A stretch of 13,071 nt of DNA from Aulosira sp. ZfuVER01. Lineage in GTDB: Bacteria > Cyanobacteriota > Cyanobacteriia > Cyanobacteriales > Nostocaceae. How positions within the stretch are numbered: position 1 is the first letter of the stretch; each line of letters begins with the position of its first letter. The notes under the pieces were generated by a model. The model was given only the letters and a program-made list of their open reading frames with translations. It made no database searches and was not told the DNA's origin. Made by a program: the position numbers and the translations under genes. Location: the NCBI GenBank assembly GCA_034530615.2, contig JAVRCV020000014.1:1-13071 (forward strand). Reading direction: 5' to 3'. Shown here piece by piece: positions 2,792 through 13,071 of this stretch.

Positions 2792-2809
2792 AGGTAGAAG
2801 GGAAAAGGA

Positions 2810-2897
2810 GGACAAGGGGGACAAGGGGGACAAGATAGAAATAACAAATAACTATTGCCCAATGCCCAATGCCCAATGCCCAATGCCCAATGCCAAA
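2810..2897. repeat. Cyanobacterial short tandem repeats (STRR-type) between convergent genes
   Basis: ggacaaggg x~3 (2810-2834), aaataac x2, tgcccaa x5 plus tgccaaa (2856-2897). Confidence 0.9.
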
Positions 2898-2907
2898 TAT
2901 CCTGTAT

Positions 2908-3393
2908 TCACCACAATTTAATTAGTTGCTTGCCTTCTAAAAATAAATCAAATCTGTGCATATCTTTCTCCGATTCAAAAGCTGCTACTGGTAAGTAGTG
3001 AAATTGAGCTTTTGTCATATATAAAAAGTAATATTCACCCTTTTTGACAGCTTTAGTAAAATGCTCATACCTAAGCTTAGTGATACTCCCATCTTCAAAA
3101 AATATCGCAAAGAAGTCTTCATCCATTTCGCAATATCTACTTTGAAAGTTTAACTCAGAAGTTCTCCCTTGCAGACGCAACCAAAGCGGTACAGAGAGAA
3201 TATAAGCAATAAAACCCAAGCAATACAGCAACCACCAACTAAATTCCTTCTGGATTATAGAAAGGATAATATTTACCACTGCCAAAACTGAAAAGATAAT
3301 TAAGGTTAATTTCATGCGCTTGTAATAATCAACCGCAATAATTGCTCTTAATTCTTTGGGAGATACTTGAAATTGCTTAGTTCTAATGAGCAT
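2908..3393 (-). CDS. YcxB-like membrane protein
   Basis: 161 aa. Two N-terminal hydrophobic helices, then a beta-rich C-terminal domain ending in ...YYFLYMTKAQFHYLPVAAFESEKD, typical of YcxB-family proteins. Confidence 0.75.
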   Translation of the reverse strand: MLIRTKQFQVSPKELRAIIAVDYYKRMKLTLIIFSVLAVVNIILSIIQKEFSWWLLYCLGFIAYILSVPLWLRLQGRTSELNFQSRYCEMDEDFFAIFFEDGSITKLRYEHFTKAVKKGEYYFLYMTKAQFHYLPVAAFESEKDMHRFDLFLEGKQLIKLW

Positions 3394-3431
3394 AATAATT
3401 TATAAGTTGTTATTGAAAGTGTCTAGCCTAT

Positions 3432-3469
3432 AGGAAATGATATCTAGATTTTTCTAGATATCATTTCCT
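3432..3469. terminator. Perfect 17-bp inverted repeat downstream of miaB (terminator or mRNA-stabilising hairpin)
   Basis: aggaaatgatatctaga-tttt-tctagatatcatttcct; no clear U-tract on either strand. Confidence 0.55.
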
Positions 3470-3509
3470 GTCAGAACTCTTGCTAAAACACAATCATCTA
3501 GTCCAAGCA

Positions 3510-4874
3510 TTAAACAGGCATTGCTTGACGCACTTCGATTGGTTCGCCAGTCAAGCTAAAAGCGCGAACTTCGGTGATTTTGACTTTCACCAATTGCCCT
3601 TTAAGTTCTTTAATATCACCAGTAAAGAAAGTCAGACGATTACCCCCTGTGCGTCCCATTACCTGAGTTGGATCTTTGGGGTTTTGGTCTTCTACTAATA
3701 CTTCCTCAATGCGTCCAAAATAACGTTGCGATCGCTCGGCGGCTTTAATACCTACTAAATGATTTAATCTTTGTAGGCGATCGCTTTTTACTTCTTCACT
3801 CAATTGATTTTCCCACAAAGCAGCGGGTGTTCCCGGACGTGGAGAATAAGCGGCGGTATTCAACAGATCAAAGCCAATATCTTCTACTAATTTCAAGGTG
3901 TTTTCAAACTGTGCTTCCGTTTCTCCAGGAAAACCGACAATCGCATCTCCACTAATCGATGCATCTGGCATATAACGGCGGATTGTATCAATTATCCGAC
4001 GGTATTTTTCATGTGTATAACCCCGTGACATTGCCTTCAACAATTCGTTATCCCCAGATTGGAAAGGGATGTGGAAGTGTTCGCAAACCTTGGGTAATTC
4101 TGCACAAGCTTTAATTAAACGCTCAGTAAAATAACGGGGATGACTAGTAGCAAAACGTAGTCTTTCAATACCTGGCACATCATGCACGTAATACAGCAAA
4201 TCTGTGAATGTATGCAGATGGCGCCCTTCGGCTGTTACTCCTGGTAAGTCACGCCCATAAGCGTCAATATTTTGACCGAGTAGGGTAATTTCTTTGTAAC
4301 CTTGCCTGCCTAATTCTTCCATTTCAGCACGAATCGCTTCTGGCGTGCGGGATTGTTCCACACCACGCACATTCGGAACTACGCAATAAGTGCAGCGTTC
4401 GTTGCAGCCATAAATCACATTCACCCAAGCTGTAACTTTGCTATCCCGCCGGGGTTGAGTGATATCTTCCATAATGTGAACTGGCTCGGTAGCCACAACT
4501 TGATTACCTTCAAATACCGACTCCAGCAAATCTTTGAGACGGTTGGCGTGTTGCGGCCCCATCACCAAATCTAATTCGGGGACGCGGCGCAAAAGGCTCT
4601 CACCTTCTTGTTGGGCAACGCATCCAGCAACAATTAATGTTAAATCGGGCTGCTCGTGTTTGCGCTTCGCCTGTCTACCCAGGTAAGAATATACTTTTTG
4701 CTCGGCATTATCCCGAATCGTGCAGGTATTGTAGAGAATTACATCTGCATGATTGGCATCTTCCGAAAATTCAAAGCCCATGTCTTCTAAAATGCCAGCC
4801 ATGCGCTCTGAGTCGGCTTTATTCATTTGGCAACCAAAAGTAGTGATGTGATAGCGGCGTTTAGAAGTGGTCAT
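3510..4874 (-). CDS. miaB: tRNA-2-methylthio-N6-dimethylallyladenosine synthase MiaB
   Basis: N-terminal TFGCQMN...NTC...GCVAQ (UPF0004 cysteines), radical-[39 protein letters not shown]-terminal TRAM domain. Confidence 0.98.
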
Positions 4875-4913
4875 GGGAAATTATGCTTAATCAGCGTAAG
4901 TTATAAGCTTTAT

Positions 4914-4925
4914 ATCTATTCACTC
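4914..4925 (-). other. Putative element end / recombination junction (left-donor GAGT - core GAAT - right-target AGAT)
   Basis: Minus strand reads GAGT-GAAT-AGAT. GAGUGAAU is in the 5' arm of the second RNA loop (6481..6474). AUCUAUUC, its complement on the right side, is in the 3' arm of the first loop (6532..6525). The site is ~85 bp after the recombinase stop. Confidence 0.75.
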
Positions 4926-4946
4926 TAATAAGTGTAGCGAGATTTT

Positions 4947-4980
4947 AAAAGCCCCCCAACCTGTAAAAATTATTGGGGGG
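4947..4980 (-). terminator. Intrinsic terminator after the IS110 recombinase
   Basis: ccccccaa (4952-4959) / ttgggggg (4973-4980) stem followed by CUUUU on the minus strand. Confidence 0.6.
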
Positions 4981-5006
4981 AAATTTTAATAGTTAATGGT
5001 CATTGG

Positions 5007-6374
5007 TCATTTGGCGATCGCGTTCACCAGGTGACTAAACAGCAGGTTAGCAACTTTAGCCATTAATTTACCCTGCAAGTGTTTACCGTTAAGTAATTGT
5101 CTGCCAGATTCATCAGTAAAGTCTTTTAACTTGCTACGGTACTCAAGCATCGTAGCGGCGGTGTCATTATCAGGCAATCTTTCGGTTTCTACTTGGCACA
5201 GAACGTACTGCCAAAACGACATCCTGCACAACGCCGAACCGCTTTTTACTTCAATTAACTCATCACCGGACTGCTCAAGTACTGTACCCATACCTAACCG
5301 CATTTTGAAAGTATCGCGTGAGCGATTGCGTTTAACTCGCTTTACATCCCCAGGCGAACGCTTAACCACAGTTTGACCATCCTGCCGATGCTTCTCTACC
5401 CGTTTAACTTCCCTGACTTCATATTCAATTAGTGGTCTTCCATTACTCAAGAATGCTTCAAACGGGTAAATTCGAGTTAGCAGCCGGGCACGTACACGCA
5501 AGCCAAAACCAAATTTGTCAAAAATCTGGTTGTATTGCTTGAAGCACTCATCATCAAGTAGAGTTTTAATCTCAGCTTCAATCCGCTGCTCGCACAATTC
5601 AATGTCACACAACCAATCACCGTGTAGCCTCAAAATAGGGTCAATGGTAATACCGTAATGGTTAGCAGCTGACGATTCATATTTTGCTGTTAGTGCTTTC
5701 CACGCTTGAGACGATACCTCAAACTGCCTTTCGGCTAACCAACCCCATAATGGAGGTACATTTCCCAATTTGGTGCTTTTAGATTTCACATGGGCAACTT
5801 CTGGAAACTGCCAAGCTAAAACTTGTCTAGCATAGTTAACTATTGGGCTTTGTACCCGGTTCAAATGTTCAAGCTGCTGGCACAGTTCCCTTAGCCGATC
5901 GATTGGTTCGCTTCGGTGCATCAGGAAATATCTAGTGTTTAATTCACCATCTTCGGTGTGGTGTTCTACATCAAGCGGGTAAGCGGCCATAGCCAAAGCA
6001 TCAGCAGCATCAGATTTATTTGGCAGATTTTTACCGCCACGATAGCGGCGTAACTCTATATGCCCAACCCACAAAATCTTAATACCTAAACTGTCAATTA
6101 TTTTTGCCCACAGGCGGGAATAATGATTCCCTGTAGGCTCCATAATTGCAACATTAGCCTGACTTTCCTGAATAAATTTAGCAAAATCAAAAGCTGATTT
6201 CTGCTTCTTTTTAACATCAGGATTGCTATAGAAAACCGGATAATGACTTGATGCTTTATTCCTCGTTTTTTCCCAGTAGGATTTTAACCCACCCTTGGGA
6301 TAAGATGAGAGAACATGAACTGTGACTGATGCTTTAGAAACATCAATACCCAAAGTTTTTAATTCAATTGTCAT
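5007..6374 (-). CDS. IS110-family DEDD recombinase/transposase (bridge recombinase), ~455 aa
   Basis: RuvC-like DEDD motifs LGIDVSK, MEPTG, KSDAADA; coiled-coil middle region; C-terminal LGMGTVLEQSG (catalytic Ser motif) followed by GSALCR. ATG at 6374 is preferred over TTG at 6392. Confidence 0.9.
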   Translation of the reverse strand: MTIELKTLGIDVSKASVTVHVLSSYPKGGLKSYWEKTRNKASSHYPVFYSNPDVKKKQKSAFDFAKFIQESQANVAIMEPTGNHYSRLWAKIIDSLGIKILWVGHIELRRYRGGKNLPNKSDAADALAMAAYPLDVEHHTEDGELNTRYFLMHRSEPIDRLRELCQQLEHLNRVQSPIVNYARQVLAWQFPEVAHVKSKSTKLGNVPPLWGWLAERQFEVSSQAWKALTAKYESSAANHYGITIDPILRLHGDWLCDIELCEQRIEAEIKTLLDDECFKQYNQIFDKFGFGLRVRARLLTRIYPFEAFLSNGRPLIEYEVREVKRVEKHRQDGQTVVKRSPGDVKRVKRNRSRDTFKMRLGMGTVLEQSGDELIEVKSGSALCRMSFWQYVLCQVETERLPDNDTAATMLEYRSKLKDFTDESGRQLLNGKHLQGKLMAKVANLLFSHLVNAIAK

Positions 6375-6412
6375 GGTTCTGTTAGTAAACAAAGGTACAT
6401 TTAGTTGTAGTT

Positions 6413-6618
6413 AAAAACCCAGTTTCAAAGCGCACGAATCACCCTAACGCCCCACATCCTAAGCAGGGGCGCGATTCACTCCTAAACGAACTGGGAAGCC
6501 ATACAACTCCGGGAAGCTGCGCTTGAATAGATGAACGCCTCACGCTAGAGAGCGCAATTCTATTACAACGCCGCATTCCCGATGTGTGATGGTGCGAACT
6601 GCTTTGGACACAATCCGC
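6413..6618 (-). ncRNA. Putative bridge RNA (target-binding stem-loop 6592..6499; donor-binding stem-loop 6495..6418)
   Basis: Directly upstream of the IS110 gene. Two long stem-loops with internal loops; G-U pairs favour the minus strand. Four CGUU-preceded segments end in GAAU or AUUC, and two of them match the element junction. Ends in GGG-UUUUU. Confidence 0.8.
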
Positions 6619-6679
6619 GACTCTGGCATCTGCCAGAGTTTCGGCTACTGTGTCAGGTAGCCTCATCAGGCGGTTATTG
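6607..6679 (-). ncRNA. Type I hammerhead ribozyme; predicted cleavage between 6619 and 6618 (GUC|)
   Basis: CCGC-CUGAUGA-GGCUAC[CUGACACA]GUAGCC-GAAA-CUCUGGC[AGAU]GCCAGAG-UC|GCGG. All core nucleotides are present and stems I/II/III pair perfectly. Loop II GACACA can pair with downstream UGUGUC (6612..6607). Confidence 0.95.
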
Positions 6680-6871
6680 TTTACTTAATTTCCTAACTTG
6701 TTGAAGTAACTCGATATTTTTTTCAATTCCAAATCTGACCGGAGACAACTCACCATCAGGTAGTCTGTCTATTAACTCTTGTAAGTTTAGACAGGTTGAT
6801 GTTAGGTGATAAGTCAAAATATCAACTGTCCTTTCTAGTGCTTGAATTCTTTGTGCTACGTCTGAATCCAT
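6674..6871 (-). CDS. Small hypothetical coiled-coil protein (65 aa)
   Basis: ATG preceded by AAGGA, amphipathic helical sequence; the UAA stop abuts hammerhead stem I. Confidence 0.7.
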   Translation of the reverse strand: MDSDVAQRIQALERTVDILTYHLTSTCLNLQELIDRLPDGELSPVRFGIEKNIELLQQVRKLSKQ

Positions 6872-6973
6872 TATTTATCCTTATAAACTGAACTTGGTAA
6901 TTGAATCATTCCCGAACCTATCCCACTAATACCAAAAATGTGATAATCTGCTTTTCAAATCACAAAGGGTGTA

Positions 6974-7258
6974 TCACAGTATGGCTGGGCGGTTTGAAGG
7001 ATTAACAGACTTAAAATGGAGGCTGTTTGAAGATATATTTCCAGAAGATTTATTTTTGAGGTAATCTTTGATAGTTTGCTCGATTTGTTCAGGACTTAAT
7101 TTATCGCACTGGGCATTGGCTTCTTTACTGATTCTGGAAACCCAGTAATTCAGTGGTTGACCTGTTAACTCACACAGATATCTAACTGCAATGCCTAGTG
7201 AAAGACTATTGGTTATGTAGTCTTCTTTGCCCATCAAGAATTTGGATTTGTTTGTCAT
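6974..7258 (-). CDS. Hypothetical protein (94 aa), paralogous to the C-terminal half of 7255..7740
   Basis: ATGA overlap with the upstream gene; clear similarity to that gene's C-terminus. Confidence 0.8.
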   Translation of the reverse strand: MTNKSKFLMGKEDYITNSLSLGIAVRYLCELTGQPLNYWVSRISKEANAQCDKLSPEQIEQTIKDYLKNKSSGNISSNSLHFKSVNPSNRPAIL

Positions 7259-7740
7259 AACTTCTCTTTATGCCTCTCAACAACCATGAACGATGCATCG
7301 GATTCTTTGGCTTTGTTTGCAAAATAAGCACTGATTTGCTGTTCAATTTCTTCATTAGTTAAAGTTTCAAACTGTGCAGTCCCCTGTTTCCAAATTTGTT
7401 GTATCCAGAAATCAGGAGATTGACCTGTTAAGCTGGCAAGAAATTTAACTGCCAGTCCGCTAACCATGCTGTTAAGCACAAAGTCTCCCTTGTCCATCAA
7501 AAATTTAGATTTATCTGTGGACTCTTCGGGGATGGAAGGTGATGGTGCTTCTTCTAGGGCGGCGATAATGGCTGAGGCGTTTTCACCATAAAAAACTTGG
7601 GTGTCGCCATCACACCAGGTAACAATGATAATTCCTTCATTTTTGTCATCAATGACTTGCCGGATTTGAGCCAGATTTACCCAACCGGCGCTGGGGGTTT
7701 TGCAAGTAAACACGCTTTTGACTGATATTATGGTGTGCAT
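7255..7740 (-). CDS. Hypothetical two-domain protein (161 aa)
   Basis: ATG start, Pro/Ser/Glu linker (EEAPSPSIPEES), C-terminal domain duplicated in the next gene. Confidence 0.8.
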   Translation of the reverse strand: MHTIISVKSVFTCKTPSAGWVNLAQIRQVIDDKNEGIIIVTWCDGDTQVFYGENASAIIAALEEAPSPSIPEESTDKSKFLMDKGDFVLNSMVSGLAVKFLASLTGQSPDFWIQQIWKQGTAQFETLTNEEIEQQISAYFANKAKESDASFMVVERHKEKL

Positions 7741-7826
7741 GGTTCAGGCTTATCCAATGGCTAAGTTGGGTTGAGCTTTTGCGATCGCGTCCAATCTCCC
7801 AAAAAGCGCGATCGCAAAAAAATTGA

Positions 7827-8216
7827 CTAAAACCCGTCAGGGATACCGCTATCTGTGGCAGTATCCCCAGCTTCAAAAGGGATATCGTCTATGCTGGGTT
7901 CCTGCCCGGTTGAGTTATCTTGTGATGGTTGGAGTTTTTCTAGTTCAGCCTTGGTTTGTTCGAGTTTTGAAATCTCTCGCTTGAGGTTGTACACCTGGTC
8001 GTCTAGTTGGTTTCTTTTGGCTTCCAAGTCCAAAATCTCTTTTTGAAACTGCTTACCAATCTGGGAACGGATGTTACGCTCAACCAATTCCATTAGATGC
8101 AAAATTGCCTCATCCTCATCATCTCCTTGGGCAACTTCACCAAACAACTCTAGGTGCTTATTTTCGTAGTTCCCCAGGTTTAAAACCCGTTTGTAACTGA
8201 TGCTTTTAAGTTGCAT
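7827..8216 (-). CDS. Hypothetical coiled-coil protein with acidic DDIPF-containing tail (129 aa)
   Basis: N-terminal alpha/beta segment (LNLGNYE), heptad-rich middle, acidic tail. Confidence 0.8.
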   Translation of the reverse strand: MQLKSISYKRVLNLGNYENKHLELFGEVAQGDDEDEAILHLMELVERNIRSQIGKQFQKEILDLEAKRNQLDDQVYNLKREISKLEQTKAELEKLQPSQDNSTGQEPSIDDIPFEAGDTATDSGIPDGF

Positions 8217-8292
8217 AATTTACCCTGTACACGTTTCAAGTCTTTGAATCAAACGCGATCGCATTTTTGAAGTGCGATCGCAAAAAATTGAG

Positions 8293-8481
8293 TTATCCTT
8301 GAACCTCAACCGGTTGCTTGTCGAAAGCTACACAAAACAAGACACCAGGATTTAGCCTGCGTAAAATGCTCATATAAGATTCAGCGTCAGTTCGAGTGCG
8401 AAAACGATTAACGCAGACATTCTTAACTGTTGTTTCACAGCGAAAAACAGCCCACGGTTTAAGGTCAGCGCGATAAGTCAT
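8293..8481 (-). CDS. Small hypothetical protein (62 aa)
   Basis: MTY...PW...RFR.R.DA......LRRL.P...F...FD pattern, which I recall from small Nostocales hypothetical proteins; first clear gene of the leftward operon. Confidence 0.75.
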   Translation of the reverse strand: MTYRADLKPWAVFRCETTVKNVCVNRFRTRTDAESYMSILRRLNPGVLFCVAFDKQPVEVQG

Positions 8482-8615
8482 AATTTAATTTCCAATTTTT
8501 CAAAAAAGGCCAGCGTCAAGCTACACCAAGCTGACGCTGGTGTTCCATACGTTTGACTGACAGAAGAATGACTCCAGGTTGGAGGAAAGCGCCAGCTGTA
8601 ACACTGGCGAATCAT
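8478..8615 (-). CDS. Possible 45-aa leader ORF (MIRQCYSWRFPP...FFEKLEIKL), not in the ORF track
   Basis: Open frame whose TGA overlaps the ATG of 8293..8481 (ATGA); it spans a terminator-like hairpin. Confidence 0.3.
   Translation of the reverse strand: MIRQCYSWRFPPTWSHSSVSQTYGTPASAWCSLTLAFFEKLEIKL
8502..8540 (-). terminator. Terminator/attenuator in the leader of the leftward operon
   Basis: CCAGCGUCA-(13 nt)-UGACGCUGG-CC-UUUUUU on the minus strand, ~20 nt before the 62-aa gene. Confidence 0.6.
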
Positions 8616-8731
8616 GGTTTAATTTTGAATTCACAACTGAGTAGAGATTAGCGTCTAAATTTATACCTCCATAGAGACAGCATGACTGTGCAGCGCCGGG
8701 TGAAGGGAAAGCGCTATGTGATTGTTATGTG

Positions 8732-8800
8732 ACTGCGAACATTACATAGTTAACTGCGAACATTGCACAGTTAACTCCGATGATTACGCAGTTAACTCCG
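8732..8800. repeat. 21-bp tandem repeat (3 units plus a partial)
   Basis: actgcgaacattacatagtta / actgcgaacattgcacagtta / actccgatgattacgcagtta / actccg. Confidence 0.85.
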
Positions 8801-8938
8801 CGCCAATGACCAATAACTATTGACCATTGACTCTGGACTTTTGACTTAGGGTGTTTCCGCGCCGGGCACTTTGGCAAGTGGTGCGGGTGCTTGCTCCAGA
8901 ACAACACGCAAGGTTTAGGCGTGGGGGAGCTTGTTGTT

Positions 8939-9021
8939 TTGTTCTACCAAACAAGTTAATATTATATTGTTCTACGAAACCAGTCAACATTTCGTAGAAC
9001 AATATATTTTTTTTGTTCTAC
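8939..9021. promoter_or_regulatory. Operator array in the divergent promoter region (TTGTTCTAC x4, including a 15-bp perfect inverted repeat)
   Basis: TTGTTCTAC at 8939, 8967 and 9013, inverted at 8994-9002. tattgttctacgaaa (8965-8979) / tttcgtagaacaata (8990-9004). Immediately upstream of the RHH gene. Confidence 0.7.
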
Positions 9022-9035
9022 AATTGGAAAAAGTA

Positions 9036-9446
9036 ATGATAAAAGAGAATGCCGAGACCCAAGATATTAGCGGAAGATGCGATAAACGCATCAATCAGGA
9101 TCAGCCGAGCGGATTGGGAGAAGTTAGAGACGATAGCTCAATCAATAGGCTTAAAGAGCAAAGCGGATCTGCTGCGAGCGATTGCACAGGGGGAGATACG
9201 TATCGGGCAAATGTCGAATACGGAGACAGCCCTGCTGGGAAACTCCTAAGTCGTCTAGAGTTGTTGGAGAAAGCTTTTTATGGTTACGTGCATGGTCATC
9301 AAGAGCGACTCAAGACACGCTACAAAGAGAGTACAGAACTAGAATCTGCTTTCACAGAAGAATTACAAGTGATTAAGCAAGGGCTTCGTGATTTAGCGCA
9401 ACAAGTCGAAGACGACTCAGAATTAAACAACAATGAAAAACCATAA
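9036..9446 (+). CDS. Overlapping frame with C-terminal coiled-coil; expressed from ATG 9036 or by -1 frameshift from the RHH gene
   Basis: The part after 9240 (KLLSRLELLEKAFYGYV...LRDLAQQVE) looks like a real helical protein, while the part overlapping the RHH gene does not. G_GGA_AAC heptamer at 9237-9243. Confidence 0.6.
   Translation: MIKENAETQDISGRCDKRINQDQPSGLGEVRDDSSINRLKEQSGSAASDCTGGDTYRANVEYGDSPAGKLLSRLELLEKAFYGYVHGHQERLKTRYKESTELESAFTEELQVIKQGLRDLAQQVEDDSELNNNEKP
9049..9249 (+). CDS. Ribbon-helix-helix (CopG/Arc-like) DNA-binding protein
   Basis: MPRPK... then beta-strand ASIRIS, helix RADWEKLETIAQSIG, turn, helix SKADLLRAIAQG. Confidence 0.8.
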   Translation: MPRPKILAEDAINASIRISRADWEKLETIAQSIGLKSKADLLRAIAQGEIRIGQMSNTETALLGNS

Positions 9447-9479
9447 GCCGTCCTGCCTGCATGGGTGAGGGCGGTTTTT
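9447..9479 (+). terminator. Intrinsic terminator
   Basis: gccgtcct...agggcggt stem followed by a T-run, directly after the 9446 stop. Confidence 0.6.
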
Positions 9480-9537
9480 AATGGGCATCGCTCCTCACCT
9501 CAAAGTGCGATCGCCAATGACCAATGACAAATGACAA

Positions 9538-9804
9538 ATGACTAACCAAACCCAAGCCCAAATCGAAGCAGCCATTGAAACACTCAAGGATGCTAAAAAC
9601 GCCGCCATCACATCGCTATACGAATTTGTGGATTTTGTACGCACCATTGATTCTGAATTAACTCCCAGTGAAGCATTGATCATCACTGGATACGTATTGC
9701 ATGAATTACCAGAATTGTTTAAGAAAAATCCCGGTCTGGTAAATCAAATCCAAGAGATAGCAACAAAATTAAAACTCGAACGCTCAGATATTAGCAACAG
9801 CTAA
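9538..9804 (+). CDS. Hypothetical helical protein (88 aa)
   Basis: Co-oriented in the rightward cluster, protein-like composition; the start is embedded in atgacaa heptamer repeats. Confidence 0.75.
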   Translation: MTNQTQAQIEAAIETLKDAKNAAITSLYEFVDFVRTIDSELTPSEALIITGYVLHELPELFKKNPGLVNQIQEIATKLKLERSDISNS

Positions 9805-9893
9805 CAACCTGATTTTTAATACCTAAAAAATTGAAATGCCTCCTAGAGTTAGCAGCTACTAAGAGGCGATTGGATAAAATCTCTACTCTCATT

Positions 9894-10793
9894 ATGACAT
9901 TAAAAGCATCACAAACTCTGTCACTAAGGACAGAAAAAGAACTGGCATTTTTCCTAGAACAGAACACAATTCCATTGACTCAAGCACTATGGGAATGGAT
10001 AGCATTACAAGGAAAAATCGGTACACAAATAGAAATTGACCTCACGGACTTTGAGCAATTTGTCACTAAACACCGAGGTACAAAATTTGCTCGGTGGTGG
10101 TTGTTAAAACGCTTCAAATGGCTTATCCAACATAGAGTAATCCAAGTAATCAAAGAATTCAGTAGTACAGCTTACAGAATACTTTTAAGACCCTTTGATT
10201 GGTTAAAACCACGTAAAAAAAATTCGCAAAATCACTTGCAAAATCTCAACTCGACTTGCGATTTAACCACCTCAAACGAGCAATCAGCAAGGGACGGGGA
10301 GAACAACAACAACACTTATATTCCTAAGATATCGACTAGCGAACGCCAAGAGTTAAACAAGATACTCGAAATCATCAAGCTTTGCGAACAATATGGTTAT
10401 CAACCATCTGCACCAATTTTTGATTTTTCTATTGACGAACTCAAAGCAAGTTTAGAGCAATGGTCAAGTCAACAGTATGAGGAATTAGAAAGACGCTATG
10501 ACATCCTCAAACTGTGTGCTGAATATGAGATTTACTACCATCCCAACAAAGCAGGCACTCAAGAACTGTTTAATTACCCCATTGAAGAAATCGAATTAGC
10601 TCTAAAACACTTCATCAAAAGCGGTGGATTTGAAAAACGTGCCAACGGTAAACCAATTATTTCTAATCCCCAAGGTTGGTTAATTCGTTGCTTACAGCAA
10701 TCTTGGTGGGAACAAGTGACATTTGGCATTGAGCAATTTCTCAATGTCATGAATGCCTTTTTACCTAAGAACATCCCTAGGGATTATTCCTAA
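9894..10793 (+). CDS. Putative replication-initiator/replisome-organiser-like protein (~299 aa)
   Basis: N-terminal winged-helix-like region, low-complexity linker, internal ~45-aa duplication, C-terminal ISNPQGWLIRCL motif. ATG 9894 is preferred over TTG 9831. The function is inference. Confidence 0.6.
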   Translation: MTLKASQTLSLRTEKELAFFLEQNTIPLTQALWEWIALQGKIGTQIEIDLTDFEQFVTKHRGTKFARWWLLKRFKWLIQHRVIQVIKEFSSTAYRILLRPFDWLKPRKKNSQNHLQNLNSTCDLTTSNEQSARDGENNNNTYIPKISTSERQELNKILEIIKLCEQYGYQPSAPIFDFSIDELKASLEQWSSQQYEELERRYDILKLCAEYEIYYHPNKAGTQELFNYPIEEIELALKHFIKSGGFEKRANGKPIISNPQGWLIRCLQQSWWEQVTFGIEQFLNVMNAFLPKNIPRDYS

Positions 10794-10853
10794 AAGTTAG
10801 TTGAAAAAAATAAGCCGCAAAGCGCGGCTCCATCTACCTATCAAAGGAAAATT

Positions 10854-11054
10854 ATGCCAGATTCATCTTTACTATTCGACCGTCAGCAAATCGAGATTTT
10901 CAAAAACTGGATACGCCGCCGCTTCATAGCAGAAGCCGATTTTCAACAGATGCCAGTAGAATTTGCCCTGGCGTGGTCAGCTGCTCTCAAAGAATTGTCC
11001 CAAACGGTTGCTCATGAGATAGTTCCGTTTCACCGCCGCGGGGGTGAGTCATGA
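10854..11054 (+). CDS. Hypothetical protein (66 aa)
   Basis: AAGGA SD before the ATG; ATGA overlap with the next gene. Confidence 0.7.
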   Translation: MPDSSLLFDRQQIEIFKNWIRRRFIAEADFQQMPVEFALAWSAALKELSQTVAHEIVPFHRRGGES

Positions 11055-11710
11055 GTAAACAGCTAACTTTATTCGACTTGAGTGCGATTACTCCGCCAAC
11101 TACCCAGGTATATGACCCCGCTTGGGATGATGATACAGTTGATTCTCAAATTGCCAGTCAGGGAATTGATAATTCCTCCTCTACTCCTGAGTCACAGTCA
11201 CCACTTGCCCAGGAGTCTTTTTCTCATAACCGTTGGAATCCTGCTGATTTCGGGGAAGTGCCACACAAGGCAGACGGCGATCATCTGACAATTTTCTACG
11301 ATGACACCAACGAACCACCAGATCCAGATGATTATCAAAATCTCACCGATTATGAGCAAGCCTGGCGCGAGTGGCGATTACGTGTTGGGGCGCAAGTAGA
11401 GAGTGATACCCAACTAGACACCGTAGAATTGCTTGTTGGGGCGCAAGTAAATCGTGATACTAAAAAAGTTGCGCCCCAACACGATAAGCAAACTCATTGG
11501 GTAGAAAAGTACTGGGTGCAGCGGGAAGGAAACAAGTACTGGTACTATCGCTACTGCTGGATGACCGGGCGCAAAAAACACCGCCGCTACATTGGCTCAG
11601 TTGAAAGTGCGATCGCAAAAAATCGGAAATTGGAAGTTGAGAGTGCGATCGCGGATGGAGAATCCCCGGCTGAGATTGAAAATCTAATTCGCTCCTGGCG
11701 CAAGTCCTAA
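11051..11710 (+). CDS. Hypothetical mobile-element protein with acidic N-terminus and a basic/aromatic C-terminal beta domain (likely nucleic-acid binding)
   Basis: QLTLFD, EPPDPDDY...YEQAWREW and YWYYRYCW...KKHRRYIG motifs; translationally coupled to the previous gene. Confidence 0.8.
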   Translation: MSKQLTLFDLSAITPPTTQVYDPAWDDDTVDSQIASQGIDNSSSTPESQSPLAQESFSHNRWNPADFGEVPHKADGDHLTIFYDDTNEPPDPDDYQNLTDYEQAWREWRLRVGAQVESDTQLDTVELLVGAQVNRDTKKVAPQHDKQTHWVEKYWVQREGNKYWYYRYCWMTGRKKHRRYIGSVESAIAKNRKLEVESAIADGESPAEIENLIRSWRKS

Positions 11711-12016
11711 AGCCTGTGGATTCTCCTGTAACAACTTCTGCAACTTTCGCAACTCATCCCAGGTGCGAGAGTTAATATCAGGCTCCTTTGACTGTGGAGT
11801 TGCCCGATAATTTTCCTTTCGCCAGGTGATGTATCGGTCGATGGCATCTAATACTATCGCTGCATTGTCTGTTACAAGGCAATTACCCGCATCTAATTGC
11901 CGGGCATATTCTGTAATTGGAAGTTCCAAAACTTCTGGAACGCGAATAACGGTTGTTTTCCCATGCTTCCAACTGTTACCCCAAGTCGTGGTTCTGCGTC
12001 CGCCTTTACTACTCAT
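11684..12016 (-). CDS. Small putative DNA-binding protein (RHH-like; ~110 aa)
   Basis: MSSKGGRRTTTWGNSWKHGKTTVIRVPEVLELPITEYARQLD shows a strand-helix pattern. ATG 12016 is preferred over the ORF-track start. Confidence 0.65.
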   Translation of the reverse strand: MSSKGGRRTTTWGNSWKHGKTTVIRVPEVLELPITEYARQLDAGNCLVTDNAAIVLDAIDRYITWRKENYRATPQSKEPDINSRTWDELRKLQKLLQENPQALGLAPGAN

Positions 12017-12028
12017 GATTGCATCTCT

Positions 12029-12049
12029 ATTGCCTGTTACAAGGCAATT
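12029..12049. promoter_or_regulatory. Palindromic operator-like site, second copy at 11864-11884
   Basis: attgcct-gttaca-aggcaat-t; 20/21 identical to attgtctgttacaaggcaatt at 11864. Confidence 0.55.
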
Positions 12050-12123
12050 TATCATGAAAAATGCGATCGCACTTCTTGGGAATTGGGATGCTTCCAAAGT
12101 GCGATCGCGTAGCAAAAAGCAAA

Positions 12124-12297
12124 TTATGGGTCAATCCTAAGCGATGGCGGGAGTAAATCAGCCTCATATTCATCCCAAGCTTTGTCAGCGATACCTTCTA
12201 GAGATTTGGCTAGCACCCGGGGGTCGTCCATATCCCCATTCAGGATTTGTCCAATTAAATAACCAAGGGACAGTACCAAGTCAGTTTTGTTGATCAT
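12124..12297 (-). CDS. Small acidic hypothetical protein (57 aa; MINKTDLVLSLGYLIGQILNGD...LPPSLRIDP), not in the ORF track
   Basis: Its ATG overlaps the recombinase TGA (ATGA) and it fills the gap to the next gene. Confidence 0.7.
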   Translation of the reverse strand: MINKTDLVLSLGYLIGQILNGDMDDPRVLAKSLEGIADKAWDEYEADLLPPSLRIDP

Positions 12298-12875
12298 AAA
12301 GTGGCGATCGCCCCCTTAATCGCGTCTGGGTCAATGTCGATGTAACGCTCAAGTGCCTTAAAATCCCGATGCCCGGTGATTTTCTTAATTTTGTAGGGGT
12401 CAATGCCGTTGCGGTGCAGTTTTGTTATAAAACTCCGGCGGGTAGTGTGAGTGCTAATTCCCTTACTCGCAAAACTAGCTTTTTCACAAGCTCGTTTGAG
12501 AATGTCATAAGCATTGCGCCAAGTCATCGGCTTAGTTCCATCCCGTCCGGGAAACAGCCAAATGTTATCAGTCTCAGGTTTGTAAGATGCCAACGATTCA
12601 GCCAAAACTTGATGTACAGGCACTTGCCGCGTTTCACGACTGCCATCAGGCCGCTTTTTGCGAGTTGCAGCTCGAAAAGTAATGTATTCCCGTGGCTTGC
12701 CATCATCATCATAAACATCAGCAACTTTTAGCTGAATCAATGCCCCCCACCTTTCCCCCGTGTACCAGCCTAAATCCAAAAGTAATTTGTATTTTTGGGT
12801 TTGAATTTGACGACGTAATTTAGAATATTCCGTGTCAGTGATACAGGCGGCCTGTCCGTGACCGTCAACCTTCAT
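12294..12875 (-). CDS. Small tyrosine recombinase (catalytic domain only; resolvase-like)
   Basis: Catalytic residues TGERWG (R), RKK (K), HTTRR (HxxR), GHRD (H), ERYID (Y). 193 aa, no N-terminal core-binding domain. Confidence 0.93.
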   Translation of the reverse strand: MKVDGHGQAACITDTEYSKLRRQIQTQKYKLLLDLGWYTGERWGALIQLKVADVYDDDGKPREYITFRAATRKKRPDGSRETRQVPVHQVLAESLASYKPETDNIWLFPGRDGTKPMTWRNAYDILKRACEKASFASKGISTHTTRRSFITKLHRNGIDPYKIKKITGHRDFKALERYIDIDPDAIKGAIATL

Positions 12876-12895
12876 TCATTGACCATCCTTTTTCA

Positions 12896-12936
12896 ATGTT
12901 CCGCTTTTACCTCTGTTACAGGTAAAAGTGGAATAT
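12896..12936. promoter_or_regulatory. Inverted repeat with 7-bp spacer upstream of the tyrosine recombinase (candidate res/core site or operator)
   Basis: atgttccgcttttacct-ctgttac-aggtaaaagtggaatat, arms 15/17 complementary; related arms recur at 13009-13035. Confidence 0.6.
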
Positions 12937-13071
12937 CCAAGCTTTCAGCTATTACTAAAAGTAAGCACTATCCTAGTGCTGGCAAGCCTTTCACGTAATC
13001 AGTGAATCTTCTGCTTTTACATAAAACTGGAATATTTACTTTATTTTTGAAGCCGCATAAAACGGATTTAT

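What the first reader, a model, noticed from the sequence alone, without database searches (positions are those of the whole stretch)
4914..4925. Element boundary is spelled out by two guides of the upstream ncRNA
Seen: the minus strand here reads ...ttaGAGT-GAAT-AGATata. The second RNA loop has UUUAGGAGU-GAAU on its 5' arm (same sense as GAGTGAAT). The first loop has CAUCU-AUUC on its 3' arm (complement of GAATAGAT). Known: in IS621-type bridge recombination the downstream junction of an inserted element is left-donor/core/right-target; left guides are same-sense, right guides antisense, and the target loop is 5' of the donor loop. The geometry here matches that. Inference: empty site = (G)TAATA-GAAT-AGAT, circle junction = GAGT-GAAT-CACC, far junction = TAATA-GAAT-CACC (plus strand GGTGATTCTATTA). 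Matching fades beyond 4 nt on each side of the core.
Basis: partly seen in the sequence, partly recalled or inferred. Interest (0 to 1): 0.85.

Follow-up and report, generated by a model that had tools for sequence, protein, structure and literature searches.

The report
RNA-guided episome end beside miaB
The flagged 12 bases are the real right-hand junction of a large mobile DNA element that a guide RNA and its recombinase inserted just upstream of the miaB gene, and that guide RNA appears to be cut out of a longer transcript by a built-in hammerhead ribozyme.

Summary
Observation confirmed, interpretation supported with corrections. GAGTGAATAGAT (4914-4925, minus strand) occurs once in the window. 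Homology to element-free relatives starts at window 4921. Their empty site reads TAATA-GAA-TAGAT(G), as the target loop predicts.

The far junction is not in this contig, which ends at 13071. It lies at the start of contig C6 and reads TAATA-GAAT-CCCCAC. The fixed core is GAA, with 5-nt guides on each side.

The element is not a 1.5-kb IS. It is at least 8.2 kb here and 11-17 kb in relatives, with a shared gene backbone. In 26 of 34 related elements the flank after the right end matches that element's own right target guide. In 12 of 14 the left flank matches the left target guide. One relative is a 16.3-kb contig with a 141-nt terminal overlap that carries the joined right-left ends.

The recombinase is a divergent IS110 type: NCBIfam NF051857, and a fold like IS621 and ISCro4. 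The 5' part of the ncRNA has a complete hammerhead core with covarying stems. It lies next to this recombinase in 50 of 53 hits. Large cargo-bearing IS110 loci are described in a 2026 preprint; three searches found no paper reporting a natural hammerhead on a bridge RNA.

The parts
4914..4925 (-). The flagged junction: last 4 nt of the element's right end (GAGT, 4925-4922), core GAA plus T (4921-4918), and the first 4 nt of the right target flank (AGAT, 4917-4914).
   Evidence: Homology to relatives begins at 4921.
4919..4921 (-). Core trinucleotide GAA, shared by target and donor and present at both junctions.
   Evidence: GAA (or UUC) is invariant in all four guide arms of 36 ncRNAs. Both junctions carry it in own genome and relatives.
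4922..5006 (-). Non-coding right end (RE). It contains a terminator-like hairpin, CCCCCCAA...TTGGGGGG (4980-4952), followed by CUUUU, and ends in TTAGAGT.
   Evidence: The RE terminal motif TAGA[GC]TGAA or TTACCCTGAA is found in 34 of 36 related loci.
5007..6374 (-). IS110-type DEDD/Ser recombinase, 455 aa from the ATG at 6374. Conserved residues are D11, E79, D122, D125 and S369.
   Evidence: NCBIfam NF051857 459.5 bits, cutoff 180. Pfam PF01548 25.1 bits, below the cutoff of 29. Residues invariant in 25 sequences. AF2 pLDDT 81.8. Foldseek top hits ISCro4 9t56 and IS621 8wt9/8wt6, E 1e-7, TM 0.62-0.65 on the target.
6413..6618 (-). Predicted mature bridge RNA, about 205 nt: 5' hairpin, target-binding loop on a long stem, donor-binding loop, then a U-run.
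   Evidence: Alignment of 36 homologs. Pair counts: 88.7% of cells paired and 25 pairs with compensatory change; 0 of 500 shuffles reach this. MFE -84.8 kcal/mol, z -4.2. The 5' end is inferred from the hammerhead cleavage site; the 3' end is approximate.
6557..6566 (-). Left target guide GUAAUAGAAU. The effective part is UAAUA+GAA, same sense as the left target.
   Evidence: The left flank on C6 reads TAATA-GAA.
6525..6533 (-). Right target guide CAUCUAUUC, antisense of GAA-TAGATG.
   Evidence: The right flank is GAA-TAGATA in the window and GAA-TAGATG in L003.
6474..6483 (-). Left donor guide AGGAGUGAAU, same sense as the right-end terminus TAGAGT-GAA; one position is a G.T wobble.
6436..6445 (-). 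Right donor guide AGGGUGAUUC, antisense of GAA-TC(A)CCC. The real left end is GAA-TCCCCA, giving 7 of 9 pairs with one internal mismatch.
   Evidence: The left end begins TCCCCA in own genome and in 13 other elements. Durrant et al. describe discontiguous pairing of this guide in IS621.
6607..6673 (-). Hammerhead-type ribozyme motif (open stem I). Stem I is CCGC 6673-6670 with GCGG 6618-6615. Core CUGAUGA is at 6669-6663. Stem II is 6662-6657 with 6648-6643. GAA is at 6642-6640. Stem III is 6639-6632 with 6627-6620. C17 is at 6619. A pseudoknot joins GACAC 6654-6650 to GUGUC 6611-6607. Predicted cleavage lies between 6619 and 6618.
   Evidence: Rfam RF03152, 27 bits, E 0.017, full-length match but below the gathering score of 56.3. 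Stems and pseudoknot are 95-97% paired with compensatory changes. The model built here gives 53 hits in 30 of 101 family genomes, and 50 of 53 lie just upstream of this recombinase type. Cleavage itself was not tested.
6674..8481 (-). Upstream same-strand ORFs: 8293-8481, 7827-8216, 7255-7740, 6974-7258 and 6674-6871. The last one's stop codon abuts hammerhead stem I. They are probably co-transcribed with the ncRNA and the recombinase.
   Evidence: No sigma-70-like site on the minus strand between 6700 and 7400. Homologous ORFs lie in the same order in five relatives. Co-transcription is inferred.
8931..13071 (.). Conserved backbone or cargo of the element, cut by the contig end. It includes plus-strand ORFs, among them a 320-aa possible replication-initiator-like protein (9831-10793), a 219-aa protein (11051-11710), and a 193-aa tyrosine recombinase with the catalytic domain only (12294-12875, minus strand).
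   Evidence: Pfam PF00589 62.4 bits. PHROG integrase families. The Atlas gives only a weak lead to Rep/winged-HTH families. Synteny with elements in five other genomes runs up to window 13071.
3510..4874 (-). Host gene miaB. Its start codon lies 44 nt downstream of the insertion point, outside the element.
   Evidence: Pfam UPF0004, Radical_SAM and TRAM. Conserved in all 40 relatives searched.

Best explanation
The 12 bases are the right junction (left donor - core - right target) of a large mobile element. A bridge RNA and an IS110-type DEDD/Ser recombinase integrated it 44 nt upstream of miaB.

The element runs from window 4922 up to and past the contig end at 13071. Its left end lies on contig C6, positions 1-51, beside the other half of the split site. 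The bridge RNA (about 6618-6413, minus strand) reads a 13-nt site, NNNNN-GAA-NNNNN. Here the target loop spells TAATA-GAA-TAGAT. [quoted passage not shown]

Recombination between a circular form of the element and the chromosomal site would give exactly the two hybrid junctions seen.

The recombinase-RNA module sits at the 3' end of an operon, at the far right of an 11-17 kb episome-like element. That element also carries a small tyrosine recombinase, regulators and, in relatives, lectin, coiled-coil and collagen-like proteins. A hammerhead ribozyme immediately 5' of the bridge RNA most likely cuts the guide out of the operon transcript, between 6619 and 6618.

Shown: both junctions, the empty site, agreement between guides and flanks across many elements, the fold and conserved residues of the recombinase, a circular or tandem contig with joined ends in a relative, the hammerhead core and its covariation.

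Inferred: activity of this copy, co-transcription, self-cleavage, and the episome's mode of replication.
For: - Boundary: relatives' homology starts at window 4921 (11 of 14 same-genus genomes, the other 3 at 4928; alignment).
- Empty site: TTTAATAGAATAGATG in L003, and TAATAGAATAGA in 6 of 19 loci.
- Far junction: the upstream flank of L003 maps to G000:C6:51-1585. C6 reads ...CTTTAATAGAAT|CCCCACAAGAG..., then the contig ends after 50 nt of element.
- Relatives with both ends found and agreeing with their own guides: G014, G006, G003 and G013. In G005 only the right end was found, and it matches.
- Right flank against right target guide: at least 5 of 6 in 26 of 34 elements, and 5 of 5 in 25 of 34. 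Non-cognate pairs reach at least 5 of 6 in 16 of 1122.
- Left ends: in 9 of 11 upstream stretches one GAATCCCCA lies 9.7-15.4 kb upstream of the ncRNA. In 7 of those 9 the 5 nt before GAA equal the left target guide.
- Joined ends: L102 is a 16,334-bp contig with an exact 141-nt terminal overlap. It holds RE-GAA-TCCCCA. L046/L103 shows the same junction.
- Recombinase.
- RNA structure.
- Hammerhead.
- Guide rules: PMC11208160, passages read.
- The element is single copy in its own genome.
Against: - The left and right parts lie on different contigs. The gap between window 13071 and C6:1 could not be closed, so continuity in this genome is inferred from relatives.
- 8 of 34 right flanks do not match their guide. 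Two of those have the left end there instead, and L063, L039, L066 and L042 are unexplained. 2 of 9 left flanks do not match.
- The donor guides do not pair perfectly with the ends: one mismatch or bulge in the right donor guide, and one wobble plus mismatches in the left donor guide.
- The hammerhead scores below every Rfam gathering score. It was not reported in a 61-kb scan of 10 loci at E up to 1. The single-sequence MFE fold gives stem III but not stems I and II.
- Pfam does not detect the Transposase_20 domain, and DEDD_Tnp_IS110 scores below its cutoff.
- No circle or empty-site form of this copy was seen, but only assembled contigs of three possibly source runs could be laid.
Confidence: 0.85

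Rival explanations
1. The large element is not a co-evolved episome. It is an 'expanded IS110 locus': a compact IS that gained cargo stepwise through half-site recombination, as proposed in the 2026 preprint. On this view whole-unit mobility is incidental.
For: The preprint 10.64898/2026.08.14.744561 (abstract, section 5 and passages read) reports a size continuum up to about 100 kb, mostly plasmid-derived cargo, and half-matches at boundaries. Here the left-end-proximal halves differ between elements and have no homolog in the own genome. L095 has a duplicated left end, and L063 and L039 share about 200 nt inserted between the right end and the expected flank.
Against: Window 7545-13071 is syntenic with elements at five other chromosomal sites. 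Both ends, TCCCCA and the right-end motif, are conserved, and both flanks match the element's own guides in 12 of 14 cases. This points to whole-unit moves. A 16.3-kb circular or tandem contig carries the complete unit. The preprint reports that complete donor pairs are essentially absent at expanded loci; here they are the rule.
Confidence: 0.2
2. Only a compact IS of about 1.8 kb (hammerhead, ncRNA, recombinase, right end; 4922-6690) is the mobile unit. It happens to sit at the edge of an unrelated island that arrived by other means, for example through the tyrosine recombinase at 12294-12875.
For: Canonical IS110 elements are 1.0-1.6 kb with the RNA in the left end (PMC11208160). A phage-integrase-family gene lies in the island. 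Among distant relatives, DNA similarity between genomes starts right at the hammerhead.
Against: No left end (GAA-TC[AC]CC) lies next to the ncRNA in any of the loci examined. The only left junction that matches the left target guide lies 9.7-15.4 kb upstream. The host site is split exactly between C6 and window 4921 with nothing else missing. The tyrosine recombinase has the catalytic domain only (193 aa), and there are no direct repeats of att type beyond GAA(T).
Confidence: 0.04
3. The hammerhead-like region is a structural 5' domain of the bridge RNA, comparable to the 5' stem-loop of the IS621 RNA. On this view it does not self-cleave.
For: It scores below the Rfam gathering scores. The MFE fold prefers an alternative hairpin that uses the pseudoknot strands. 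Nine relatives carry a 30-40 nt insertion between A9 and stem II, and two distant copies have lost the pseudoknot loop.
Against: Every core nucleotide (CUGANGA, GAA, the A15.1-U16.1 pair, GUC) is conserved across recombinases down to 36% identity, and only N7 varies. Stems II and III and the pseudoknot covary. A change at G87 is compensated in stem II, not in the alternative hairpin.
Confidence: 0.2

Closest known systems
IS621 / IS110-group bridge recombination (Durrant et al. 2024, PMC11208160; structures 8WT6 and 8WT9) and ISCro4 (9T56)
   Same: A DEDD RuvC-like domain plus a Ser domain in the recombinase, with the same overall fold. The ncRNA lies upstream of the gene and has a target loop followed by a donor loop. 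The 5' arms are same-sense and the 3' arms antisense. The core is included in all four guides, and the right donor guide pairs discontiguously. The ends join into a donor junction.
   Different: Only 13-15% sequence identity, and no hit in a sequence search of the PDB. The protein is 455 aa, against 326. The core is the trinucleotide GAA instead of CT. The guides are 5+5 nt. The RNA lies 10-15 kb from the left end, so a promoter formed at the RE-LE junction cannot sit next to it. A hammerhead precedes the RNA. The element is 11-17 kb with a conserved backbone.
Expanded, cargo-bearing IS110 loci (Hu, Xie, Yang and Rubin, bioRxiv 10.64898/2026.08.14.744561)
   Same: IS110 recombinase and bridge RNA bounding many kilobases of cargo. 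Plasmid-like content. The suggestion that some circles may replicate.
   Different: That work reports mostly one-sided half-matches and no whole-unit mobility above about 20 kb. The words cyanobacteri*, Nostoc and tyrosine do not occur in its main text. Here both ends are canonical, the backbone is conserved, and each lineage carries guides for a different site. I could not see its supplements, which may list such elements.
Hammerhead ribozymes with stem-I/loop-II tertiary contacts or a pseudoknot; Rfam RAGATH-1-hammerhead RF03152
   Same: The CUGANGA...GAA...GUC core, three stems, and a Watson-Crick contact between loop II and sequence 3' of stem I.
   Different: It falls below every Rfam threshold. 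It is fused to the 5' end of a guide RNA and is specific to one recombinase clade (50 of 53 hits). Typing it as type I, and the comparison with pseudoknotted hammerheads, rest on my recall.
Temperate phage and integrative-plasmid integration modules (tyrosine or serine integrase with attP/attB)
   Same: A circular episome with a single joint site that lies between convergent operons, and integration at one specific chromosomal site, often next to a conserved gene.
   Different: Site choice is written in 10 nt of RNA rather than in protein-DNA contacts. The overlap region is 3 nt. The tyrosine recombinase on board is not the enzyme whose specificity matches the junctions.

Membership tests
IS110-family bridge-RNA recombination system | Recombinase with an N-terminal RuvC-like DEDD domain | tested here: met
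   D11, E79, D122 and D125 are invariant in 25 sequences. NF051857 scores 459.5 bits against a cutoff of 180. Fold match to IS621 and ISCro4. Pfam PF01548 reaches only 25.1 bits, below its cutoff of 29.
IS110-family bridge-RNA recombination system | C-terminal Tnp domain with a conserved catalytic serine | tested here: inconclusive
   S369, in an SGD motif, is invariant, and Foldseek aligns the full length to IS621 chains. Pfam Transposase_20 is not detected. I did not check residue-level equivalence to IS621 S241.
IS110-family bridge-RNA recombination system | A structured ncRNA next to the gene with two internal loops | tested here: met
   36-sequence alignment. The base and top stems of both loops are 97-99% paired with compensatory changes.
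IS110-family bridge-RNA recombination system | Loop arms complementary to target flanks and donor ends, co-varying across elements | tested here: met
   Right flank 26 of 34. Left flank 12 of 14. The donor arms match the conserved ends.
IS110-family bridge-RNA recombination system | A short core shared by donor and target and present at both junctions; no inverted repeats | tested here: met
   GAA at both junctions. It is a trinucleotide, not the CT dinucleotide of IS621.
IS110-family bridge-RNA recombination system | A circular form with joined RE-LE | tested here: inconclusive
   Seen for relatives (L102, a contig with a terminal overlap, and L046). A tandem array would assemble the same way. 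Not seen for this copy.
IS110-family bridge-RNA recombination system | A compact element of about 1-1.6 kb with the RNA in the left end (classical definition) | tested here: not met
   The element is at least 8.2 kb here and 11.4-17 kb in relatives.
Hammerhead ribozyme | Conserved catalytic core (C3-A9, G12-A14, a cleavage triplet NUH) | tested here: met
   CUGAUGA, GAA and GUC are present and conserved; only N7 varies.
Hammerhead ribozyme | Three helices around the core, supported by covariation | tested here: met
   Stem III has up to 15 compensatory sequences per pair and stem II has 9. The distant group changes stem II completely. Stem I is nearly invariant, so it is uninformative.
Hammerhead ribozyme | A score above the curated Rfam threshold | tested here: not met
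   Best hit RF03152 at 27 bits against 56.3; RF00008 at 14.6 against 48.5.
Hammerhead ribozyme | Self-cleavage | not testable with these tools
   No raw RNA reads were available; only assembled contigs could be laid.

The most novel reading that the evidence does not exclude
Nostocaceae harbour a family of 11-17 kb circular episomes, virus-like or plasmid-like. Their integrase is an RNA-guided bridge recombinase. Each lineage picks its chromosomal attachment site through ten reprogrammable RNA bases around a GAA core. The guide RNA is released from the end of a polycistronic operon transcript by a dedicated hammerhead ribozyme. This would be a natural ribozyme-processed bridge RNA, and an RNA-programmed counterpart of phage attP/attB integration.
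Probability: 0.5. Interest if true: 0.85.

Novelty: new variant of a known kind. Interest (0 to 1): 0.72.

Why it matters
It shows that a bridge RNA can be read straight off raw sequence to predict an empty site and both junctions, and that the prediction holds.

It extends bridge recombination from minimal insertion sequences to a conserved episome family of 11-17 kb. Both ends of these elements are canonical and their guides are visibly reprogrammed from site to site. This is a natural precedent for moving large cargo with a 13-nt address.

The hammerhead fused to the guide suggests how such an RNA can be made from inside an operon, far from the element's end. If it is active, it is a ready-made natural design for expressing precisely trimmed bridge RNAs.

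The clade has a 455-aa enzyme, a GAA core and 5+5 guides, and is far from IS621 in sequence. It may therefore widen the toolbox and the known rules.

Tried and rejected
- Rfam at gathering thresholds on the whole window gave no hit.
- A sequence search of the PDB with the recombinase gave only chance-level Cas1 hits and no IS621.
- Closing the gap between window 13071 and C6:1 failed:
  - There is no k-mer overlap between contig ends.
  - The left-end-proximal DNA of four relatives has no DNA or protein homolog elsewhere in the own genome, apart from the two ends.
- Sequencing runs: only assembled contigs of three runs that may be the source of the window, plus one relative, could be laid. One contig spans 2869-13047, and the last 54-58 nt of the window overlap a much deeper contig. 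No listed joint or loose end lies at 4921, and 206 loose ends were not shown. This says nothing about excision.
- IMG/VR viral contigs hold no relative of the recombinase.
- PLSDB plasmids hold only two weak hits, at 33% identity.
- The fold of the 320-aa backbone protein came out at pLDDT 52 and is unusable, so no fold search was run. The Atlas gave only weak leads to Rep/winged-HTH families.
- Pfam and PHROGs on backbone and cargo proteins mostly found nothing. The tail-fibre hits rest largely on collagen repeats and lectin domains. I therefore do not call the element a prophage.
- An Rfam E-value scan of 10 related loci reported no hammerhead at E up to 1.
- The MFE fold of the hammerhead region does not reproduce stems I and II.
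- The sigma-70 scan found no promoter-like site upstream of the ncRNA.
- Literature searches for hammerhead with IS110, with bridge RNA, and with transposase plus cyanobacteria found no report of the fusion. A 'divergent hammerhead' cluster in preprint 10.64898/2026.10.21.760802 is described without genomic context. I cannot tell whether it is the same RNA.

Full report
**What is at the coordinates.**

On the minus strand the window reads ncRNA (about 6690-6413), a 455-aa ORF (6374-5007), 85 nt of non-coding DNA ending ...CTTATTAGAGT, then GAAT-AGATATAAAG, and 44 nt further the start of miaB (4874-3510). The 12-mer GAGTGAATAGAT occurs once in the window; 0.07 occurrences are expected at up to 1 mismatch.

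**The boundary test.**

I searched 40 relatives with window 3500-9500. All have miaB. In 11 of the 14 same-genus genomes the match begins at window 4921, the G of GAAT. In the other three it begins 7 nt earlier, because their site resembles the element's end by chance. The aligned upstream regions show the uninterrupted site. L003 reads ...CTATACTTTAATAGAATAGATGTAAAGC. TAATAGAATAGA is present in 6 of the 19 loci printed, and the rest carry variants. This is the site that the first RNA loop spells: 5' arm GUAAUAGAAU, and the 3' arm the antisense of GAAUAGAUG.

The 1.5 kb upstream of the site in L003 maps to another contig of the same genome, G000:C6:51-1585. Read on the element's strand, C6 gives ...GGACTTTTCTATACTTTAATAGAAT|CCCCACAAGAGTTAATCTG..., and the contig ends after 50 nt of foreign DNA. 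The chromosomal site is therefore split cleanly between C6 and window 4921, with GAA(T) on both sides.

The window is the whole of contig C14.

- The left end starts TCCCCA, not TCACC. The right donor guide, AGGGUGAUUC, pairs with GAATCCCCA in 7 of 9 positions with one internal C.U mismatch, or with a bulged U. One relative (G006) lacks that U and pairs contiguously. Durrant et al. describe discontiguous pairing for this same guide in IS621 (PMC11208160, passages).
- The invariant core is GAA. GAA or UUC is invariant in all four arms of 36 RNAs. The base after it varies, and it does not track the flank.
- The guides read 5 nt on each side. The sixth position usually mismatches: 17 of 34 right flanks score exactly 5 of 6.

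**The rule holds across the family.**

Five relatives carry homologous modules at other chromosomal places. Their RNAs align with conserved stems and variable loop arms.

- In G014, G006, G003 and G013 both junctions were found. Both agree with that element's own guides: 5 of 5 next to the core on the left, and 5-6 of 6 on the right.
- In G005 the right junction agrees. The left end was not in the 19.9 kb fetched.

A scan of one genome per species returned 61 loci, all cyanobacterial and mostly Nostoc and kin. 35 of them hold a full ncRNA. With the window that makes 36.

- 34 of the 36 have the right-end motif TTACCCTGAA or TAGA[GC]TGAA.
- In 26 of those 34 the next 6 nt match the cognate right target guide in at least 5 positions. 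Non-cognate pairings do so in 16 of 1122.
- Of the 8 that do not match, two (L041, L046) have the left end TCCCCA there instead. Four (L063, L039, L066, L042) are unexplained, and two score 4 of 6.

I fetched up to 20 kb upstream for 11 further copies.

- 9 contain one GAATCCCCA, 9.7-15.4 kb upstream of the RNA. L095 has a second copy 54 nt away.
- In 7 of those 9 the five bases before GAA equal the left target guide.
- The 2 that do not match are the same elements whose right flank also disagrees.
- One stretch had no candidate. One was only 4.5 kb long.

Two of the G-handle elements share guides with two named loci and may be the same elements; I count them once. Counted that way, 12 of 14 elements with a located left end obey the rule.

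**The element is large and has a backbone.**

Window 7545-13071 is syntenic with the elements in all five relatives, up to the last base of the window. Element lengths are 11.4 to 16.1 kb in the four with both ends, and about 11.5-17 kb.

Pfam, PHROGs and NCBIfam recognise little in the backbone:

- a 193-aa tyrosine recombinase with the catalytic domain only (12294-12875);
- a weak Arm-DNA-binding match;
- in relatives, an HTH_3 CI-like regulator, a P-loop ATPase, F5/8-C and ConA-like lectin domains, and 750-850-aa coiled-coil or collagen-repeat proteins.

The 320-aa protein at 9831-10793 has only weak language-model leads to replication initiators, and its fold prediction failed. I call the element episome-like and leave virus versus plasmid open. 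IMG/VR holds no relative of the recombinase.

**A joined form exists in nature.**

L041 lies on a 16,334-bp contig whose first and last 141 nt are identical. That is the signature of a circle, or of a tandem array, in a k=141 assembly. The contig contains ...TTACCCTGAA|TCCCCAGTAAG..., the right end joined to the left end through GAA. The joint lies in the 35 nt between two convergent operons. L046 shows the same joint, on a contig whose title gives about 2.5 times the coverage of two other element-bearing contigs of that assembly.

For the window's own copy I could lay only assembled contigs of possibly source runs. They show the integrated form as one contig, 2869-13047.

**The enzyme.**

- Pfam sees only a sub-threshold DEDD_Tnp_IS110 match.
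- NCBIfam's second IS110 model, NF051857, scores 459.5 bits. The model named 'RNA-guided transposase', NF033542, scores 45.8 against a cutoff of 140.
- D11, E79, D122, D125 and S369 are invariant across 25 sequences down to 39% identity.
- An AlphaFold model (pLDDT 81.8) finds the bridge recombinases ISCro4 and IS621 as the ten best PDB chains, at E 1e-7 and 13-15% identity.

It works like IS621 and belongs to the IS110 family in the wide sense, in a distant clade.

**The RNA and its hammerhead.**

The 36-sequence alignment supports two loop modules, each with a base stem and a top stem. The 5' 75 nt read CCGC-CUGAUGA-[GGCUAC...GUAGCC]-GAA-[ACUCUGGC AGAU GCCAGAGU]-C|GCGG. That is a full hammerhead core with a GUC cleavage triplet.

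- Rfam's RAGATH-1-hammerhead model aligns end to end, but at 27 bits, below its threshold of 56.3.
- Stem III has up to 15 compensatory sequences per pair.
- The sixth pair of stem II switches C-G to G-C in 9 sequences.
- Loop II (GACAC) pairs with GUGUC just 3' of stem I, with 8 compensatory cases.
- No shuffle of 500 reaches the observed values.
- A group of 392-aa recombinases at 36-41% identity keeps the same core with different stems.

A covariance model of the hammerhead alone finds 53 hits in 30 of 101 sampled genomes of the family. 50 of the 53 have a hit of this recombinase within 900 nt downstream on the same strand.

Against this reading: the single-sequence MFE fold gives stem III but an alternative to stems I and II, nine relatives carry an insertion next to stem II, and cleavage is untested.

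I propose that the ribozyme frees the guide from the transcript of the upstream same-strand ORFs. In the window the last ORF's stop codon touches stem I. No promoter-like site lies in between. The usual IS110 solution, a promoter formed at the RE-LE joint next to the RNA, is not available 10-15 kb from the left end. After cleavage, the 5' GCGGAUUGU can refold with GCAGUUCGC into a terminal hairpin. These steps are inferred.

**What is known.**

The guide geometry is that of Durrant et al. 2024. Large cargo-bearing IS110 loci, including plasmid-like ones, are the subject of a 2026 preprint. I read its abstract, section 5 and passages; its supplements were not available. It stresses half-matches and declining whole-unit mobility with size, and does not mention cyanobacteria.

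Three full-text searches found no report of a natural hammerhead on a bridge RNA. One preprint's 'divergent hammerhead' cluster lacks context, so I cannot compare it. It agrees in kind, and I did not test it.

**Verdict.**

The thing itself is a new variant of a known kind: a distant IS110-type bridge system that serves as the integration module of a conserved 11-17 kb episome family, with a GAA core, 5+5 guides and a hammerhead-headed guide RNA.

Noticed in passing
window 6607-6673 (minus strand): A complete hammerhead core with covarying stems and a loop-II pseudoknot lies directly 5' of the bridge RNA. It is found next to this recombinase type in 50 of 53 hits across 30 of 101 family genomes.
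   Followed up: yes
L030:1-3204 against window 6675-3505: Another Nostoc assembly carries a homologous element at the same site upstream of miaB. Its right target guide spells TAGAAA, matching its own flank TAGAAA; the window's guide spells TAGATG for a flank TAGATA. This could be an old shared insertion or independent hits on allelic sites.
   Followed up: partly
L026, L098 and L099 left junctions: About ten of 36 RNAs have a left target guide ending AGAGU. Where seen, the left flank is ...TAGAGT-GAA, which looks like the right-end terminus of the other subfamily. In G003 about 20 nt of flank resemble the window's own right end, and no recombinase lies upstream. These elements may home to right-end remnants of their cousins.
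   Followed up: partly
L063:3939-4150 and L039:3951-4160: Two elements share the same sequence directly after the right end (flank CTGTAA, which does not match either guide). In L063 the sequence expected from the guide appears 211 nt further on (5 of 6). This may be an extension on the right-end side.
   Followed up: no
L095:4331-4400: The left-end terminus GAATCCCCAAAGAGTTGGA occurs twice, 54 nt apart.
   Followed up: no
G000:C3, minus strand, near 65614: The own genome holds one other exact copy of the 13-nt target TAATAGAATAGAT, and it is unoccupied. 12 sites lie within one mismatch while keeping GAA.
   Followed up: no
window 8803-8846: A repeat of about 44 nt, in the divergent intergenic region of the element, matches dozens of places in many related genomes at 84-100% identity (query 655-698). 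It is a short dispersed repeat.
   Followed up: no
window 2800-2900, 9514-9550 and 13014-13071: Short stretches with many times the depth of their surroundings, and many false 'joints' between them, in assembled contigs of the runs laid. These are dispersed repeats. The last one explains why the contig ends at 13071.
   Followed up: no
L080:4698-4879: Three CRISPR repeats (RF01318, at the gathering score) begin about 230 nt after the right end of a distant family member, whose flank matches its guide 6 of 6.
   Followed up: no
G068:C299:1137-1391 and L081:1142-1540: Two hammerhead or ncRNA 5' parts lie in tandem upstream of one recombinase gene.
   Followed up: no
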